Below are positions 12,861 to 34,614 of a DNA stretch of 64,000 nucleotides, piece after piece. The stretch lies in NCBI GenBank assembly GCA_964472755.1, contig CAYYMF010000005.1, positions 3,386 to 67,385 of the forward strand, given 5' to 3'. Each line of letters begins with the position of its first letter. Position 1 is the stretch's first letter. The translations under genes and the position numbers were made by a program. The DNA is from an uncultured Chitinophagales bacterium (GTDB lineage Bacteria; Bacteroidota; Bacteroidia; Chitinophagales; JADIYW01). A model generated the notes under the pieces. That model was not told the origin of the DNA, did no database searches, and worked only from the letters and a program-made list of their open reading frames with translations.

Positions 12861-12982
12861 TCAAGACATTTCAATGTATAAAAATACCAAATAATGTTTA
12901 ATTAGAAAACGGAAAATAGAAATCTATGCAATAAGCCTTTGAATAATTTTAGATTATCTGTACATTGCATAAAAGTTTCAAT

Positions 12983-13966
12983 ATGTTTAAAAAGGGATTT
13001 TTATTGTTCTTATTTCCATTATGTATTATTTCGTGCAAGTCTGTTTCAAAAGAGGGAAATACCATAGAAACAATAGAAAAGAATATAGAAAAGCCATTAT
13101 TTTCTGCAGATTCTACTTATCGATTTATAGAAGAACAAATTGCATTTGGTCCAAGGATTCCAAATACACCAGCACAAAAAAAATGTGCCGATTACTTATC
13201 CAATAAATTAAAACAATATGGAGCAGAAGTGATTATTCAAACTACAAAATTACCTATCTATAATGGACAAATAGTACCGTGTTATAATATCATTGGAAGC
13301 TTTAATCCGAATATAAAAAGAAGATTGTTACTTTGTGCACATTGGGATACTAGACCATTTTCAGATAGAGCAGATAAAAACCAAAACACTCCAAACCTCG
13401 GTGTTGATGATGGTGCCAGTGGTGTTGCTGTACTCATAGAAATTGCGAGACAGATACAAATTAAACAACCCAATTTGGGTATTGATATCATATTCTTTGA
13501 TTTAGAAGATTATGGACCACCTGCTTCAGAAGAAACTAAATATACTGGCGGAGATTTCTATGCGTTAGGTACGCAATATTGGTGTAAAAATCCACATATA
13601 CCAAATTACAGTGCAAGTAATGGAATTTTATTGGATATGGTTGGAGCAAAAAATGCTACATTTACTTATGAAGGTGTTTCTATGCAATATGCTCCTGATT
13701 TTATGAAACAAATTTGGAACAATGCCGCAAGTTTAGGATACGGAAAATACTTTGTAAAAAGAATAAGCAATCCAATTATTGATGACCATTATTACATCAA
13801 TACATTAACCACAACACCCACTATCGATATTATTTTCAGAACTTTTGAGACAGAAAGCGGATTTGCAAAACATTGGCATACACACGATGATACAATTGAT
13901 AATATAGATAAGAATACACTTCAAGCAGTGGGAGAAACGGTTTTAGCAACTATTTATAATTATTAA
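12983..13966 (+). CDS. M28-family peptidase / glutaminyl-peptide cyclotransferase-like lipoprotein
   Basis: Motifs LLCAHWDTRPF and GVDDGASGVAVLIEIAR. The ORF-track start at 12965 is a TTG. The ATG at 12983 gives a lipoprotein signal (MFKKGFLLFLFPLCIISC). Confidence 0.8.
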   Translation: MFKKGFLLFLFPLCIISCKSVSKEGNTIETIEKNIEKPLFSADSTYRFIEEQIAFGPRIPNTPAQKKCADYLSNKLKQYGAEVIIQTTKLPIYNGQIVPCYNIIGSFNPNIKRRLLLCAHWDTRPFSDRADKNQNTPNLGVDDGASGVAVLIEIARQIQIKQPNLGIDIIFFDLEDYGPPASEETKYTGGDFYALGTQYWCKNPHIPNYSASNGILLDMVGAKNATFTYEGVSMQYAPDFMKQIWNNAASLGYGKYFVKRISNPIIDDHYYINTLTTTPTIDIIFRTFETESGFAKHWHTHDDTIDNIDKNTLQAVGETVLATIYNY

Positions 13967-14107
13967 TCTTTTATAGATTTTTATAAGTTAATTTTGATGT
14001 TTACTCTACAAACTAATGAGATTACAAATACAAATAATAAAAATTTTATTAGTTTTTATAAATTTTATATTTAACTTTAATGATAAAATCTATTCATCAT
14101 GAGAAAT

Positions 14108-14738
14108 ATGAAAAAATCATCGTCTTCACATTAGTAATTTGTAGTTTAAGTGTCGTTTTTATGCTTGTAAAAAAGACAAAAATAAGACTGCAAAACCTGA
14201 AACAATAGATGTTTATGTCGCTGGATACGAATCTAACGGAAGCATAAATGTTGCTAAAATTTGGAAGAATGGTCTAGCTCAAAATCTAACAGATGGTACA
14301 CAAGATGCTATTGCTAATTCTATTTTTGTTCATAACAATGATGTATATGTTGCAGGATATGAAATTAGCAGAGGTATACGTATTGCTAAAGTATGGAAAA
14401 ATGGCATAGCTCAAAATCTCACAAATGGTTCTCGAGATGCTCGTGCTAAATTCGTTTTTGTTCAGAATGATGATGTTTATGTTACAGGGTATGAATCCAA
14501 CGGAACTAAAGATATTGCAAAAATATGGAAGAATGGTATAGCTCAAAACCTATCAGATGGTACACAAAATGCTTCTGCTAATTCTGTTTTTGTTCAGAAC
14601 AATAATGTTTATGTCGCAGGAATTGAATCTAACGGAAGTAAAAATATTGCTAAACTTTGGAAGAATGGCATAGCCCAAAATTTAACAGAAGGCACAAAAG
14701 ATGCTCTTACACAATCTGTTTTTGTATATAAACACTAA
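14108..14738 (+). pseudogene. Tandem-repeat lipoprotein gene interrupted by two -1 frameshifts in homopolymers (A6 at 14111-14116, T5 at 14156-14160)
   Basis: The frame is open from 14145 to the TAA at 14736-14738 with no ATG/GTG/TTG. Adding one A and one T restores MKKIIVFTLVICSLSVVFYACKKDKNKTAKPETIDVYVAGYESNG... (about 210 aa). Confidence 0.75.
14208..14735 (+). repeat. 4 x 132-bp (44-aa) in-frame tandem repeat
   Basis: Units start at 14208, 14340, 14472 and 14604. The consensus is (D/N)VYVAGYESNGxxxIAKIWKNGIAQNLTDGTxxAxANSVFVQNN. Confidence 0.9.
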
Positions 14739-14870
14739 TACAACTCAATGGCAATTGTATTTTAAGTATAAAAAGCTATCTAAATTCAATTGTTTAAAAT
14801 CATAATAACTACAAAATTTACTTTAAAGTTTCCTACTATTAAGTTTAAAATTTGTATTTTCATTGATTGA

Positions 14871-16721
14871 ATGAGGAAATTTAAACTCTCGCTATTAATA
14901 ATTATATTGGCACTCGTTTCATTGAATTATGAAACCTATCATACTCATTTCATTCAACAAACTAAAGGCTATTTAAGCGCATCTTCTAAAGATTTACAAG
15001 TAAGTCTTGATAAAATTATTACTGAAATAAATCTGCAAGACAGTATTATAGAAGACAAAAAAACTATCATTGAGCTTTTTAAACAATCTAGATTTCATTT
15101 TAAGAAAATAGAATTCATTGCGGATTATAATGCAGAAGATATTTTTAAAATTCCACTTGTATTAGATAAAAAACGAAATTATATTATCGAAGCTTTTGCT
15201 TTTCACGTGTTGATTGACATTGAAGCTAAGCTTGCTGAAGATAAAATAGAAAAACAAGCTTTAAAAAATTTAATCAAGGAATTTCAATATAGAAACTTAA
15301 AATTTTATGAGATGGTACAATCTGAACTAATTTCAGAATCTACCATTTTGGAAGCCTTAAAATATAACATTATAAAAATAGAAACCTTAAATATTACTGA
15401 TTTTGATTGCGAAACCACTCGTAATTCTATTAAAGATATTCAAGCAAATTTTCAATCTATTGATACCTGTTTGACTTTATTAGCTCCACAATCTCAATCA
15501 ACTGTACAAGAGAAAATTAATCAAACACGTTTACTAATTAAATCCGCTAATAGTTATCTGGAACAAAAGAATTTTGAAAACTTAGAACGTTTATATTTTA
15601 CAAAAAAATATCTTCATCCACTAAATGCATTATTTTCACAAATTTTAAAAGAAAGTAAGATTCCGCTCAATGAAACAATATACAATATCATTCGTGCAGT
15701 TAACTTATATACTGAAAACATTTACAATAAGGATTTTCTTAATACATCATTTTATAGTGTCAATAAATATAAAATTCCTAGTCAAGCAGAGATTGAATTA
15801 GGTAAACATCTATTCTTTGATAAAAGATTGTCTGGCGACGGACAAATGAGTTGTGCCACTTGCCATCAACCTGAACTTTCTTTCACAGATGGACTTCCCA
15901 CTTCGATAACCAATAAAGTAGGGATTTTCCAAGATAGAAATACACCAACCATTTTGAATAGTGTATTTCAACGCAATCTATTTTATGATTTAAGAGCTAA
16001 AAATTTAGAACATCAAGCCAGTCAGGTAGTAGAGAATCATCAAGAATTTAATGCTAATTATGATAGCATAGTTTTTCGTTTAAAGAACGACAAATATTAT
16101 AATGAAACATTTAAACAATTATATCCTTCATCTGAAAATTATATCAACGCAGCCACTATCAATGCTGCCATTGCAGCTTTTGAACACCAACTAACGGCAC
16201 TCGATTCTAAGTTTGATAAATATATGCGCAATGAATTGCCATTAATTGATAAAGAAATTGAAAAGGGTTACAATTTATTTATGGGCAAAGCAAAATGCGG
16301 TACTTGTCATTTTGCACCTACTTTCTACGGAACAGTGCCTCCATTTTATTCAGAATCAGAATCAGAAGTTTTGGGTGTTCCAATTATTTGGGATACTTTA
16401 AATTATGTTCAAAGTCCTGATATCGGTCGATACAAGTTACTAAAGTTTGATTTTTTTAAAAATTCCTTCAAAACTTCAACGATAAGAAATGCTGAATTTA
16501 CAGCACCGTATATGCACAACGGAAGTTTTAAAACCCTTGAAGCTATTTTAGATTTTTACAATCGTGGTGGTGGTACAGCTTTTACTACTATCCCAAACCA
16601 AACCTTATCTGACCAAATTTTAGGATTAAATAAACAAGAAAAACAGGCTATAATTGCATTTATTAAAAGTCTAAGTGATAGTAGTTTAAATTCTATAAAA
16701 GCACCTAAACATTTAGAATAA
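14871..16721 (+). CDS. Di-heme cytochrome c peroxidase (CCP/MauG family) with a long N-terminal extension
   Basis: 616 aa with two CxxCH motifs (CATCHQP, CGTCHFAP). The first is at about residue 328. Confidence 0.8.
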   Translation: MRKFKLSLLIIILALVSLNYETYHTHFIQQTKGYLSASSKDLQVSLDKIITEINLQDSIIEDKKTIIELFKQSRFHFKKIEFIADYNAEDIFKIPLVLDKKRNYIIEAFAFHVLIDIEAKLAEDKIEKQALKNLIKEFQYRNLKFYEMVQSELISESTILEALKYNIIKIETLNITDFDCETTRNSIKDIQANFQSIDTCLTLLAPQSQSTVQEKINQTRLLIKSANSYLEQKNFENLERLYFTKKYLHPLNALFSQILKESKIPLNETIYNIIRAVNLYTENIYNKDFLNTSFYSVNKYKIPSQAEIELGKHLFFDKRLSGDGQMSCATCHQPELSFTDGLPTSITNKVGIFQDRNTPTILNSVFQRNLFYDLRAKNLEHQASQVVENHQEFNANYDSIVFRLKNDKYYNETFKQLYPSSENYINAATINAAIAAFEHQLTALDSKFDKYMRNELPLIDKEIEKGYNLFMGKAKCGTCHFAPTFYGTVPPFYSESESEVLGVPIIWDTLNYVQSPDIGRYKLLKFDFFKNSFKTSTIRNAEFTAPYMHNGSFKTLEAILDFYNRGGGTAFTTIPNQTLSDQILGLNKQEKQAIIAFIKSLSDSSLNSIKAPKHLE

Positions 16722-16792
16722 TTTTATAAAAATATCCCTACTATTTTTGAAAAGATAAAATACTGTCGCAAGTAGTATAATATAAAAATTTG

Positions 16793-16800
16793 TATTTTTG
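16793..16800 (+). promoter_or_regulatory. Candidate -7 box TATTTTTG for mutS2
   Basis: Matches TAnnTTTG. It lies inside the ORF-track TTG start (16790) and 7 nt before the ATG at 16808, so it favours 16808 as the start. Confidence 0.45.
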
Positions 16801-16807
16801 TATTGCT

Positions 16808-19180
16808 ATGCATTTTTTTCCAATTAATACGCCTGAGAAAATAAATTTCAATACAATTCTAGAACTTCTATCCAATAAATGCATTGGAACTTTAGGCAAA
16901 AAATATATTAATGAAGCAAAATTCATTACGGATTATGAAAAATTAGTTGTCGAATTAAAAATAGTTCATCAATTAAAATCTTGGATTGAAGAAGGATTTC
17001 AAGTGTCTCATCAAGGCTTTAATTCCATGTCTTTTTTAAAAAAATTTGATATTGAAAATTACATTATCCAAATTTCAGAATTTATTCAATTATATAATGC
17101 ACTAAAAACCGTAAAGCAATTAAAAAATACAGCTAAAAAAATTGATTCAGAAAGATATACTGCATTAACTGAGATTATTAATCAAGTGCCAGAATTAGAT
17201 GCAGTACTTATTGATATAGAAAAGACTATTATTATAGAACAAGAAATTATCAATGAAAATGTTTCTAAAGTTTTGCAACAAATTAGAAAACAAAAATCGC
17301 AAATACAACAACAGATACAACAGAATTTTAAACGTATTTTGACACATTATAAAGCCCAAGAATTCTTACATGAAACTGAAGAAAGTATTAGAAATGAAAG
17401 AAAAGTTTTGGCAGTATTAAGTGAAAAAAAACGAAGTGTAAAAGGAATTTTTGTTGATGAATCTTCTAATGGAAGCATTACATTTATTGAGCCTGAAGAA
17501 ACTGTCCATTTAAACAATGAATTGATTTCATGTATATTGGAAGAAAAGAAAGAAATTGAGAAAATTCTTATTCATTTATCTAATAAAATTCGTCCTGAAT
17601 TAGATGCCATTCAAACAACACAAGAATTTTTAGCTTATTTTGATGCACAACAAGCAAAAGCAAATCTTGCAATAGAATACCAATGTACCTTACCTGAAAT
17701 TAGAAAAGAGAAAGTTATTTATCTAAAAAATTTCAGAAATTTAGCTTTAGAATATCACCTTAGAAAACATAAACACCAAATTATTCCAAATACCTTACAA
17801 TTAGACGAGCAACATCGAATTTTAGTAATTAGCGGACCAAACGCTGGTGGCAAATCTGTTGTTTTAAAATCATTAGGTTTGATGCAATTGATGTTGCAGT
17901 TTGGTTTATTATTACCTGTAGATGAAGGTTCAATTGCATGTATTTTCAAGCAAATTTTTTCAGATATTGGCGATGAACAATCTTTTGAAAATGATGTAAG
18001 TACCTATTCTGCTCATTTGCAAAAAATGAAATATTTTGTTCAAAAAGCAAATAAAGATACCTTGATTTTATTAGATGAAATGGGTGTTGGCACCGATCCA
18101 AGTTTGGGTGGAGCAATGGCGGAGGCTGTTTTAGAAACCTTGCATCAAAAAAATGTTTTTGGTTGTGTTACTACGCATTTTAATAATTTGAAAGTTTATG
18201 CTGCACAAACCAAAGGAATGCAAAGTGCGGCAATGGCATTTGATAAAGTAGCTTTACAACCCAAATATGAATTGCAAATTGGTCAGCCAGGAAGTTCTTT
18301 TACTTTCGAGATTGCTCAAAAAATTGGTATGCCACAAAATGTCATTCAATTAGCAAAACAAAAAACAGCACATAACCAAAAAGCTCTAGATGAAACTTTG
18401 AATGAAGTACAAATTGAAAAACACTATATCAAAGGTTTGCGAAAAAATGTGCAACAAAAGGAAACTCAATTGAATACTATTGTTAAGGATTACGAGCAAT
18501 TAAAAGAAGATTTTGAGAAAAATAAAAAGCGTTTAACAAAAGCATACGAACAAAGGCTGTTGGATTTTTATAATGAACAAAGTCGTTTATTAGAAAAACA
18601 AATGAGAGAATGGAAGGAAAGCCTCCAAAAAAAAGAAGACTATTTGGAATTACGTCAAAACATCGATGAACAACGTAAAACGATAGAACAAAAAGAAATT
18701 TCTAATTTCCAACAGAAAAAAGATGGTATCATTCAGGTTGGTTCAAAAGTTCGCTTAGAAGAAGGTACTGAAATTGGCGAAATAATTTCTTTAGATAATA
18801 AGAAAGCTATTGTTGGCTTTGGAAATATGCGAACAACATTTAAAATACATCAATTGGTTTTAATTGATGAGAAAACGCCAACAAAAAGAGAATTTAGGAT
18901 ACAAAAATCTTCCAAACAAATTATAGAAAAAAGTAGATTTGAAAGTGAAATTGATTTGCGTGGCAAATTGATTGAAGAAGCCCACAATGAACTCGAAGTA
19001 TTTATGGATCAATCTATTATGTATGGCATCCACCATTTAAAAATAATTCATGGAAGAGGCACTGGAAAGTTACGAACTTATATCCATCAGTATTTAAAAA
19101 GCTATCCTTATATTAAAAATTATCATTTTGAAAAAGAAGAATTTGGCGGAAACGGCGTTACCTTAGTAGAACTAAAATAA
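16808..19180 (+). CDS. mutS2: Endonuclease MutS2 (MutS ATPase + C-terminal Smr domain)
   Basis: Walker A motif GPNAGGKS, a long coiled-coil linker and a C-terminal Smr domain (IDLRG...HGRGTGKLR). Confidence 0.9.
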   Translation: MHFFPINTPEKINFNTILELLSNKCIGTLGKKYINEAKFITDYEKLVVELKIVHQLKSWIEEGFQVSHQGFNSMSFLKKFDIENYIIQISEFIQLYNALKTVKQLKNTAKKIDSERYTALTEIINQVPELDAVLIDIEKTIIIEQEIINENVSKVLQQIRKQKSQIQQQIQQNFKRILTHYKAQEFLHETEESIRNERKVLAVLSEKKRSVKGIFVDESSNGSITFIEPEETVHLNNELISCILEEKKEIEKILIHLSNKIRPELDAIQTTQEFLAYFDAQQAKANLAIEYQCTLPEIRKEKVIYLKNFRNLALEYHLRKHKHQIIPNTLQLDEQHRILVISGPNAGGKSVVLKSLGLMQLMLQFGLLLPVDEGSIACIFKQIFSDIGDEQSFENDVSTYSAHLQKMKYFVQKANKDTLILLDEMGVGTDPSLGGAMAEAVLETLHQKNVFGCVTTHFNNLKVYAAQTKGMQSAAMAFDKVALQPKYELQIGQPGSSFTFEIAQKIGMPQNVIQLAKQKTAHNQKALDETLNEVQIEKHYIKGLRKNVQQKETQLNTIVKDYEQLKEDFEKNKKRLTKAYEQRLLDFYNEQSRLLEKQMREWKESLQKKEDYLELRQNIDEQRKTIEQKEISNFQQKKDGIIQVGSKVRLEEGTEIGEIISLDNKKAIVGFGNMRTTFKIHQLVLIDEKTPTKREFRIQKSSKQIIEKSRFESEIDLRGKLIEEAHNELEVFMDQSIMYGIHHLKIIHGRGTGKLRTYIHQYLKSYPYIKNYHFEKEEFGGNGVTLVELK

Positions 19181-34097: not shown

Positions 34098-34364
34098 TTA
34101 ATGCAATATTCTAATTATTTCAACTAAATTTTCTTTTGTATTGATTTTGTAAAAAATAAAATGTGATTTTACCTTTGAACGAAAATAGCCCATTCTAATA
34201 TGGCTATAATCCTTTTCTTAATTTGGATTTTCGATTATGAATTCAATTTCATCAAAAATCAAGTCATAATATCGGTCAGCTTGTTCTTTTGACCAAGTTA
34301 TGAAAGTATAAAGCCAAATATTTTCAAGGTCGTTTTGAGCTTCATTACTAATTTTATACTTCAT
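34098..34364 (-). pseudogene. parE: ParE/RelE-family toxin gene with an in-frame TAA at codon 49
   Basis: Translates MKYKISNEAQNDLENIWLYTFITWSKEQADRYYDLIFDEIEFIIENPN*EKDYSHIRMGYFRSKVKSHFIFYKINTKENLVEIIRILH*. The stop at 34218-34220 sits where I would expect a sense codon (TTA Leu is one substitution away). Confidence 0.7.
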
Positions 34365-34412
34365 TATTTTACAAGATGTTTTTGATGAAGTTTGTTCAAA
34401 AAGTTATCTTTA

Positions 34413-34614
34413 TTAAAGTTTTTTTACAAATCCAGATTTCTCTCCTTTTTTAAGTTCGTTAATAAGTTCGCTTTTTTTTAGACTCTTCATATTCAAACAT
34501 TCTTAAAGCAGCTCGCACTACTTCACTTGCGGAAGAAAATTTTCCAGATTGGACTTGTTTATTAATAAAGTTATCAAAATAATCTCCTAATAATATCGAT
34601 GTATTTTTAGCCAT
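34413..34614 (-). pseudogene. parD: ParD-family antitoxin gene with frameshifts in A-runs
   Basis: Translates MAKNTSILLGDYFDNFINKQVQSGKFSSASEVVRAALRMFEYEESKKK, then the frame is lost. The continuation ANLLTNLKK / GEKSGFVKKL* is readable only after two frame changes at poly-A tracts. Confidence 0.6.

What the first reader, a model, noticed from the sequence alone, without database searches (positions are those of the whole stretch)
14099..14738. Gene missed by the ORF track: a repeat lipoprotein ORF with no start codon, silenced by two 1-nt homopolymer deletions in its signal peptide
The only ORF listed here (14286..14546, minus) is antisense noise. On the plus strand a frame is open from 14145 to the TAA at 14736-14738. 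It contains no ATG, GTG or TTG, which is why it is missing from the track. Upstream, the ATG at 14108 is followed by A6 and a stop after 11 codons. With one extra A, the ORF reads MKKIIVFTLVICSLSVVF. With one extra T in the T5 run at 14156-14160, it continues in frame as ...VVFYACKKDKNKTAKPETIDVYVAGYE..., a textbook lipoprotein signal with a Cys. Both lesions are -1 events in homopolymers, about 45 nt apart, and both fall in the export signal. Three explanations are possible: homopolymer sequencing errors, a very recent pseudogene, or slipped-strand ON/OFF switching of a surface lipoprotein. parD at 34.4-34.6 kb is also broken at A-runs, so a technical cause must be taken seriously.
Basis: seen in the sequence. 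Interest (0 to 1): 0.7.

Follow-up and report, generated by a model that had tools for sequence, protein, structure and literature searches.

The report
Decaying lipoprotein pseudogene, not a switch
The start-less open frame is the real remnant of a beta-propeller surface lipoprotein gene that this uncultured sludge bacterium has lost through small slips in runs of A and T; it is an ordinary dying gene, not a sequencing error or an on/off switch.

Summary
The + frame 14145-14738 is open for 197 codons, has no ATG/GTG/TTG, and encodes four 44-aa repeats. It is preceded by a signal-peptide remnant with an A6 run (14111-16) and a T5 run (14156-60). The product belongs to a large uncharacterised family (>2,400 homologs, no Pfam model) of ~340-aa lipoproteins with seven repeats, predicted to form a beta-propeller.

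- **Technical error is excluded.** Ten independent assemblies from four projects all show A6/T5, and the other ~49 long ORFs in the window are intact.
- **A switch is not supported.** Run lengths do not vary within the species and the runs are short. Eight of the ten assemblies also carry TGG->TGA at 14262-64 in the remnant.
- **The sister species is also broken.** Its ortholog sits at the same site (neighbour dS 0.5-0.8) with A7, T7 (also out of frame) and five repeats. The in-frame T6 was never seen.
- **The breaks look recent and independent.** Simulation shows both frames could not have stayed open if inactivation were ancestral, so the longest homopolymers were probably hit separately in each lineage.

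Verdict: a species-fixed, still-decaying pseudogene. Interest is low.

The parts
14099..14101 (+). Ancestral ATG start codon of the lipoprotein gene. The frame now terminates after 11 codons (MRNMKKSSSSH*).
   Evidence: The sister-species ortholog starts at the homologous ATG (ATGAAAAATATTAAAAAAATC...).
14111..14116 (+). A6 run, lesion 1. It is A7 in the sister species, where A7 keeps the signal peptide in frame with the start codon.
   Evidence: A6 in all 10 window-type assemblies; A7 in all 10 sister-type assemblies.
14080..14208 (+). 42-aa ORF from a lineage-specific upstream ATG. It reads the hydrophobic core of the signal peptide in frame through A6, then runs out of the lipoprotein frame at the T5 run.
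   Evidence: This ATG is absent at the homologous position in the sister species. There is no evidence that it is used.
14117..14168 (+). Remnant of the signal-peptide hydrophobic region and lipobox (IIVFTLVICSLSVVF-YAC). The Cys codon TGT is at 14166-14168.
   Evidence: The sister-species sequence is IIFITFIFCSVSTLF-YAC, with hydrophobic character kept. Family members have signal peptide plus Cys.
14156..14160 (+). T5 run, lesion 2. T6 would join the signal peptide to the mature frame. The sister species has T7, which is also out of frame.
14145..14738 (+). Start-less open frame of 197 codons plus TAA. It holds the mature lipoprotein remnant: a 16-aa linker (ACKKDKNKTAKPETID, from 14163) followed by four repeats.
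   Evidence: Homology.
14211..14735 (+). Four tandem 132-nt (44-aa) blade repeats: 14211-14342, 14343-14474, 14475-14606, 14607-14735. The family norm is seven and the sister species has five.
   Evidence: The AF2 model of this part has pLDDT 94, and its Foldseek matches are to parts of 6-7-bladed propellers.
14262..14264 (+). TGG, the conserved Trp of repeat 1 (KIWKNG). It is TGA (G14264A) in 8 of 10 other assemblies of the same species, a third lesion that is polymorphic.
14286..14546 (-). 86-aa antisense ORF across the repeats. It is not a gene.
   Evidence: It lies entirely opposite the conserved sense frame, whose homologs are found.

Best explanation
The region is an unannotated pseudogene in an uncultured Chitinophagales bacterium from activated-sludge-type metagenomes.

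**The ancestral gene (inferred).** It encoded a lipoprotein: a signal peptide, a lipobox Cys, a short linker and tandem ~44-aa blades of a beta-propeller. Seven blades is the family norm. The gene sat between an M28 peptidase gene and a cytochrome c peroxidase gene.

**What happened in the window's species.** The two longest homopolymers of the gene, both in the signal-peptide region, each lost one base by replication slippage (A7->A6 and T6->T5). This separates the start codon from the mature frame, so no lipoprotein precursor can be made by standard translation. Only four blades are present, against five in the sister species and seven in the family. Unequal recombination between repeats is the likely cause, and such deletions are automatically in frame.

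**Evidence that selection no longer protects the frame.** The most frequently sampled haplotype of the species has since gained a TGG->TGA stop in blade 1.

**The sister species.** Its ortholog is broken at the same T run but in the opposite direction (T7). Both mature frames are still open, and the signal peptides kept their hydrophobic character. The gene was therefore under purifying selection for most of the time since the two species split, and was inactivated late and independently in each.

**Shown:** the lesions are real, they are fixed, there is an additional nonsense allele, and the family, fold and copy number are as stated.
**Inferred:** the ancestral T6 length, the order of events and the lack of expression.
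For: 1. **Homology.** 2,430 homologs, best E = 1.5e-113, typical length 326-368 aa. Those inspected carry a signal peptide with Cys followed by repeated ~44-aa units, and the 20-sequence consensus shows seven units. AF2 pLDDT is 91, all-beta. Foldseek matches Kelch/Keap1 and CylK propellers; the 4-repeat model also matches TolB.
2. **The lesions are real.** A6/T5 is identical in L004-L011, L014 and L015, which come from four projects. Elsewhere in the 64-kb window, ~49 long ORFs are intact although they contain 647 A/T runs of >=5 nt. Only two ORF-free gaps exceed 800 nt.
3. **Further decay.** G14264A (TGG->TGA) is present in 8 of 10 assemblies. That haplotype differs from the window at 10 sites in 4.1 kb, and 7 of them fall in the 708 nt of remnant plus spacer.
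4. **Sister species.** In L016, L049, L055-58 and L060-63 the site is the same, with A7/T7, five repeats and 233 open codons.
5. **Dating.** Neighbour-gene dS is 0.47-0.80 between the two species. In simulation, at 0.2 substitutions/site P(frame open) is 0.013 for the window frame and 0.003 for the sister frame. At 0.35 it is 0.0007 and 0 of 3,000 trials. The inactivations were therefore late and separate.
6. **Target choice.** The gene has 11 homopolymers of >=5 nt. A7 and T6 would be the longest or joint longest, with the A6 at 14169, so they are the expected first targets.
7. **Dispensability.** A more distant relative has the M28 and CCP genes 53 nt apart with no such gene between them.
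Against: - Both species are broken at the same T run and no assembly shows T6. This is a mild coincidence, roughly 1 in 3 to 1 in 11 depending on how mutability scales with run length. It would also fit a tract that toggles on evolutionary time.
- The sister-species remnant has a single lesion and no polymorphism in 10 assemblies, so relaxed constraint is not shown directly there.
- Consensus assemblies cannot reveal minority run-length variants.
- No expression data were available.
- The dN/dS values between repeats (0.1-0.4) reflect old history, because the repeats are not clearly orthologous. They do not date the loss.
Confidence: 0.85

Rival explanations
1. Slipped-strand phase variation. 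On this reading the T run, and perhaps the A run, is a contingency tract that reversibly turns a surface lipoprotein ON (T6) and OFF (T5 or T7). The sampled populations would all happen to be OFF.
For: The run lengths differ between the sister species by two units that straddle the in-frame length: T5 against T7. Both mature frames are still open despite neighbour-gene dS of 0.5-0.8. The product is a predicted surface or periplasmic lipoprotein, a class that is often phase-variable in other bacteria (general knowledge).
Against: - There is no length variation within either species: 10 of 10 and 10 of 10 assemblies agree.
- The ON length was never seen.
- The runs are 5-7 nt, against a poly-A/T >=10 cut-off used for candidate phase-variable tracts (PMC6321876).
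- The window holds 226 A/T runs of >=6 nt inside intact long ORFs (148+64+13+1), so such runs are ordinary here.
- In the window species a second lesion (A6) and, in most assemblies, a TGA stop make a single slip insufficient to restore the gene.
Confidence: 0.06
2. Homopolymer sequencing or assembly error. The real genome would have A7 and T6 and an intact gene.
For: Both lesions are 1-nt length changes in homopolymers. A second broken gene, parD, is also broken at A/T runs.
Against: - The identical A6/T5 appears in 10 independent assemblies from different projects and assemblers.
- T7 in the sister species is reproduced in 10 assemblies.
- The parD fragment is reproduced exactly in 60 blocks of the collection and in both species.
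- 647 A/T runs of >=5 nt lie within intact long ORFs in this window.
- The additional TGA allele is a substitution, not a homopolymer length call.
Confidence: 0.01
3. Recoding. The gene would still be expressed at a low level through ribosomal frameshifting or transcriptional slippage at the T run.
For: In the sister species the start-codon frame presents T_TTT_TTA, a classic -1 slippery heptamer (sequence; motif from general knowledge). Runs of T can cause RNA polymerase slippage.
Against: - The two species need shifts of opposite sign: -1 at T5 and +1 at T7. That is not how conserved programmed frameshifts behave.
- A -1 shift on the sister heptamer leads to the wrong frame (MLVKK...), not the mature frame. 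This was worked out from the sequence.
- The window species would need two recoding events from its ancestral start.
- T5 is too short for appreciable transcriptional slippage (general knowledge).
- The TGA allele in most assemblies is not rescued by any frameshift.
- No Rfam family matches the region.
Confidence: 0.03

Closest known systems
Uncharacterised Bacteroidota family of ~340-aa lipoproteins with seven ~44-aa 'VYVAGYE...AKLWKNG.AQNLTDG' repeats (for example Flavobacterium chungangense 'Kelch repeat-containing protein' and Aureibaculum algae FF125_11730, as named by the sources)
   Same: Up to 49-57% identity over the repeats. The same signal peptide, Cys, linker and repeat layout, and the same conserved W-K-N-G and VYV motifs.
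   Different: Only four repeats instead of seven. No start codon is joined to the frame. The best hit is only ~50% identical, and no intact close ortholog was found.
Kelch-type and TolB-type beta-propellers (Keap1 Kelch domain, CylK C-terminal propeller, TolB)
   Same: The predicted fold of the intact family is an all-beta propeller with four strands per repeat. Foldseek E-values are 5e-9 to Keap1 and designed SAKe propellers, and TMq is 0.63 to CylK.
   Different: There is no significant sequence relationship. The profile against PDB gives E = 0.13 and no Pfam Kelch hit passes threshold. Sequence identity is 11-16%. The family is not a Kelch family member by sequence criteria.
Homopolymer-frameshift pseudogenes of bacteria under relaxed selection
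   Same: The first lesions are +/-1 changes at the longest A/T runs. The rest of the frame is still open. Further lesions are polymorphic in the population. A neighbouring dispensable module (parDE) is also degraded.
   Different: The genome region is otherwise densely coding and intact, so this is not genome-wide erosion.
Simple-sequence-repeat contingency loci (for example Campylobacter or Neisseria poly-G/C phase-variable surface genes)
   Same: A frameshifting homopolymer lies near the 5' end of a surface-protein gene. The run length differs between related lineages.
   Different: The runs are A/T and only 5-7 nt long. They are invariant within a species, no ON allele was seen, and extra inactivating mutations are present.

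Membership tests
Pseudogene (inactivated copy of a protein-coding gene) | Clear homology to a family of intact protein-coding genes | tested here: met
   2,430 homologs, best E = 1.5e-113. The repeat and lipobox architecture is shared.
Pseudogene (inactivated copy of a protein-coding gene) | The reading frame is disrupted relative to homologs, and the disruption is real rather than technical | tested here: met
   No start codon in the mature frame. A6/T5 is reproduced in 10 independent assemblies.
Pseudogene (inactivated copy of a protein-coding gene) | Signs of relaxed constraint or further decay | tested here: met
   TGG->TGA at 14262-64 in 8 of 10 assemblies. 7 of 10 haplotype SNPs in 4.1 kb fall in the remnant plus spacer. 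Four repeats against the family's seven.
Pseudogene (inactivated copy of a protein-coding gene) | No functional product is made | not testable with these tools
   This needs transcript or protein data from the source communities.
SSR-mediated phase-variable (contingency) gene | A hypermutable repeat tract of sufficient length (poly-A/T >=10 in the PhasomeIt cut-offs) | tested here: not met
   A6 and T5 here, A7 and T7 in the sister species. Cut-off taken from PMC6321876.
SSR-mediated phase-variable (contingency) gene | Tract length varies among closely related genomes and includes ON lengths | tested here: not met
   10 of 10 window-type assemblies have T5/A6 and 10 of 10 sister-type have T7/A7. 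T6 was never seen. These are consensus sequences only; read-level variation was not testable.
SSR-mediated phase-variable (contingency) gene | The gene is otherwise intact, so a single slip restores expression | tested here: not met
   The window species has two frameshifts relative to the ancestral start, plus a TGA allele in most assemblies. This feature is met in the sister species, which has a single lesion.
Bacterial lipoprotein (signal peptidase II substrate) | An N-terminal signal peptide with a basic n-region and hydrophobic core, ending in a lipobox Cys, joined in frame to the mature protein | tested here: not met
   All the elements are present (MRNMKK / IIVFTLVICSLSVVF / YAC), but they are spread over three frames. 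The feature is met only after in-silico repair.
Seven-repeat propeller lipoprotein family (uncharacterised) | Seven ~44-aa repeats that close a propeller | tested here: not met
   Four repeats. The AF2 model of the four repeats matches parts of 6-7-bladed propellers (TMq 0.5-0.66, TMt 0.2-0.4) and no four-bladed fold among the top 50 hits. Its C-terminal strand is not formed. This is model-based and weak.
Kelch repeat family (Pfam Kelch_1-6) | A significant match to a Kelch profile | tested here: not met
   No Pfam family passes its cut-off for the window protein. 1 of 20 family members gives a sub-threshold Kelch_6 hit at E = 0.0055. The PDB profile search gives E = 0.13 to KLHL22.
Programmed frameshift or transcriptional-slippage recoding site | A slippery site and shift direction conserved among orthologs and leading into the downstream frame | tested here: not met
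   The window needs a -1 shift at T5 and the sister needs +1 at T7. A -1 shift at the sister's T_TTT_TTA enters the wrong frame (sequences).

The most novel reading that the evidence does not exclude
The short T run at the signal-peptide/lipobox junction may be a preferred breakpoint through which this propeller lipoprotein is repeatedly lost, or slowly toggled. Two sister Chitinophagales species kept the gene under purifying selection for most of their divergence. Both then disabled it at the same run, in opposite directions (T5 and T7). That would point to parallel adaptive loss of a surface protein, for example under phage or grazer pressure in activated sludge, or to a low-rate evolutionary on/off toggle, rather than to neutral decay.
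Probability: 0.1. Interest if true: 0.4.

Novelty: new member of a known kind. Interest (0 to 1): 0.13.

Why it matters
There are three practical consequences.
- The 904-nt 'empty' gap between the M28 peptidase and cytochrome c peroxidase genes should be annotated as a pseudogene.
- Homopolymer breaks in this genome can be trusted as biological rather than technical.
- The case illustrates that an AT-rich genome loses accessory genes first at its longest A/T runs.

The parent family is a very large, unnamed group of seven-bladed propeller lipoproteins in Bacteroidota with no Pfam model. That family may be more worth studying than this dead copy.

Tried and rejected
- **Exact-DNA scans.** The scan of genome contigs found nothing. 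The scan of metagenome contigs gave two chance matches, L047 and L048, which are unrelated genes.
- **L001 as a third lineage.** L001 (GCA_020436285.1) first looked like an independent lineage with A7/T7 joined to window-type repeats. Sliding identity showed it is a chimeric MAG contig that switches between genotypes, so it was discounted.
- **Dating the loss by dN/dS.** This failed. Repeats within a genome are as similar to each other as repeats between genomes, and dS between 'positional orthologs' (1.2-2.4) exceeds the neighbour-gene dS. The repeats are therefore not clean orthologs.
- **Promoters, terminators and RNA families.** The sigma-70 scan and a Bacteroidota-type TTTG...TAnnTTTG search gave nothing above chance. 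No terminator and no Rfam family were found in 13700-15000.
- **Paralogs.** None found in the window.
- **Pfam and NCBIfam.** Nothing above the curated cut-offs.
- **Polymorphism in the sister species.** Uninformative: 0 SNPs in the remnant against 12 in the flanks, with ~1.3 expected.
- **More distant CCP orthologs.** P0123, P0125 and P0128 sit in different gene neighbourhoods and say nothing about this locus.

Full report
**1. Observation**

Reading the sequence and translating all three + frames confirms the description.
- The frame bounded by TAG 14142-14144 and TAA 14736-14738 is open for 197 codons. Shuffles of the same 640 nt give a mean of 50 and a maximum of 114.
- The frame has no ATG, GTG or TTG, which is why the mechanical ORF list omits it.
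- Tandem Repeats Finder reports 4.0 copies of a 132-nt unit, that is four 44-aa repeats of the form VYVAGYE-NG---AK-WKNG-AQNLT-G---A---S-FV.
- Upstream, ATG 14099 opens MRNMKKSSSSH*. A6 is at 14111-16 and T5 at 14156-60.

There are two corrections. The 11-codon count runs from ATG 14099, not 14108. And a 42-aa ORF from ATG 14080 reads the hydrophobic core in frame through A6, so from that ATG only the T-run lesion blocks a precursor.

**2. What the gene was**

The repaired protein finds 2,430 homologs, best E = 1.5e-113. Nearly all of the best 120 are 326-368 aa long.

The members inspected have a signal peptide ending in Cys followed by repeats of the same ~44-aa unit, and the 20-sequence consensus shows seven units. 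No Pfam or NCBIfam model reaches threshold. A family profile against PDB sequences gives only E = 0.13 to a Kelch protein.

An AlphaFold2 model of a seven-repeat member has pLDDT 91 with four strands per repeat. Its Foldseek matches are Kelch/Keap1 and CylK beta-propellers. The family is therefore an unnamed seven-bladed propeller lipoprotein family, Kelch-like in fold only.

The window copy has four blades. Its model is locally confident (pLDDT 94). It superposes on parts of 6-7-bladed propellers rather than on any four-bladed fold, and its last strand is unformed. This is weak, model-based evidence that four blades cannot close the ring.

**3. Is it a technical error?**

No. Exact-protein look-ups of the neighbouring genes and of the 42-aa ORF returned independent contigs from several sources:
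- NCBI (GCA_041392965.1, named 'Chitinophagales bacterium' by the source);
- ENA (WANG18-1 samples);
- two Logan run series (DRR4384xx and SRR345785xx).

All ten contigs that span the site show exactly A6 and T5.

The rest of the 64-kb window is densely coding. About 49 long ORFs are intact and contain 647 A/T runs of >=5 nt. Only two ORF-free gaps exceed 800 nt: this one and the parDE remnant.

The exact 51-aa fragment is on record in 60 blocks of the collection, including the sister species.

**4. Further decay**

Eight of the ten assemblies carry G14264A, which turns the conserved Trp codon of blade 1 (TGG, 14262-64) into TGA. TGG is ancestral, since it is conserved in every repeat and in the sister species.

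That haplotype differs from the window at 10 positions in 12901-17000. Four fall in the remnant and three in the 132-nt spacer after it. Only two fall in the 1.85-kb peroxidase gene and none in the M28 gene.

**5. The sister species**

A protein-guided scan found L016 (MAG 'Chitinophagales bacterium HK-STAS-BACT-18'), whose peroxidase is 87% identical. The ortholog sits at the same place, between the M28 and CCP genes. It has A7 (in frame), T7 (one too many) and five repeats. Its mature frame is open for 233 codons. Nine further assemblies agree exactly.

L001, which seemed to combine A7/T7 with window-type repeats, is a chimeric MAG contig.

A more distant relative (peroxidase 61% identical) has the M28 and CCP genes 53 nt apart with no gene between them. 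The lipoprotein gene is therefore accessory at this site.

**6. History**

Neighbour genes give dS of 0.47-0.80 between the two species.

I simulated neutral substitutions on the two mature frames.

| Substitutions/site | P(window frame open) | P(sister frame open) |
|---|---|---|
| 0.10 | 0.09 | 0.03 |
| 0.20 | 0.013 | 0.003 |
| 0.35 | 0.0007 | 0 of 3,000 trials |

An inactivation inherited from the common ancestor is therefore excluded.

The repaired signal peptides differ at many positions but both remain good signal peptides: IIVFTLVICSLSVVF against IIFITFIFCSVSTLF. The linker differs by an in-frame 6-nt indel. The gene was thus functional for most of the divergence and was disabled late and separately in each lineage.

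The gene has 11 homopolymers of >=5 nt. A7 and T6, together with the A6 at 14169, would be the longest. Hitting them first is what ordinary slippage bias predicts. The shared T-run target is a mild coincidence and does not call for a special mechanism.

**7. Switch or recoding?**

Run lengths are invariant within each species at consensus level, and T6 was never seen. The runs are far shorter than the poly-A/T >=10 cut-off used for candidate phase-variable tracts (PMC6321876). The window has 226 A/T runs of >=6 nt inside intact long ORFs, so such runs are commonplace here.

In the window species one slip would not restore the ancestral gene, and in most populations a stop codon follows.

Programmed frameshifting would need opposite directions in the two species. 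A -1 shift on the sister's T_TTT_TTA enters the wrong frame. No Rfam family, promoter or terminator signal stands out.

I cannot exclude minority run-length variants or low-level slippage without reads or transcripts.

**8. Verdict**

This is a real, unannotated, species-fixed and still-decaying pseudogene of an uncharacterised propeller-lipoprotein family.
- Confidence in the pseudogene reading: 0.85.
- The only mildly unusual point is parallel, opposite-sign inactivation at the same T run in two sister species. I give about 10% to the idea that this reflects adaptive loss or slow toggling rather than mutational bias.
- Interest is low.

Noticed in passing
window 34218-34614 (- strand): A degraded parDE toxin-antitoxin module. 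A 51-aa ParD N-terminal fragment (34459-34614) loses its frame at a T8 run on the + strand. The ParE part is a 48-aa stub (34218-34364). The exact ParD fragment is on record in 60 blocks of the collection and in both sister species, so it is an old, shared remnant rather than a sequencing error.
   Followed up: partly
L001 (GCA_020436285.1, JAGQYC010000099.1), whole 5.4-kb contig: A chimeric MAG contig. It is ~65-70% identical to both species over the M28 gene. It is then 100% sister-type up to the T run, 100% window-type to about window position 17274, sister-type again for ~200 nt, and then window-type. It should not be used as an independent genome.
   Followed up: yes
protein family (for example P0001, P0042, P0058): A very large family (>2,400 hits) of ~340-aa Bacteroidota lipoproteins with seven 44-aa repeats. 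It has no Pfam or NCBIfam model. AF2 predicts a confident all-beta propeller-type fold (pLDDT 91). The function is unknown.
   Followed up: partly
L051 2952-5833 and L054 131-3012: In a more distant relative (peroxidase 61% identical) the M28 peptidase and cytochrome c peroxidase genes are 53 nt apart with no lipoprotein gene between them. The lipoprotein gene was therefore either inserted in the ancestor of the two sister species or cleanly lost in this relative.
   Followed up: partly
window 14690: The window carries a private allele (GAA, Glu) where every other assembly of the species has GAT (Asp, the repeat consensus 'TDG'). The window also differs from GCA_041392965.1 at 13825. It therefore comes from a different genome of the same species.
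   Followed up: partly
window 14000-14820 (ends of L002, L003, L005, L012, L013): Short-read metagenome contigs frequently end inside or next to the 132-nt repeats. This is probably why the locus is fragmented in many assemblies.
   Followed up: no
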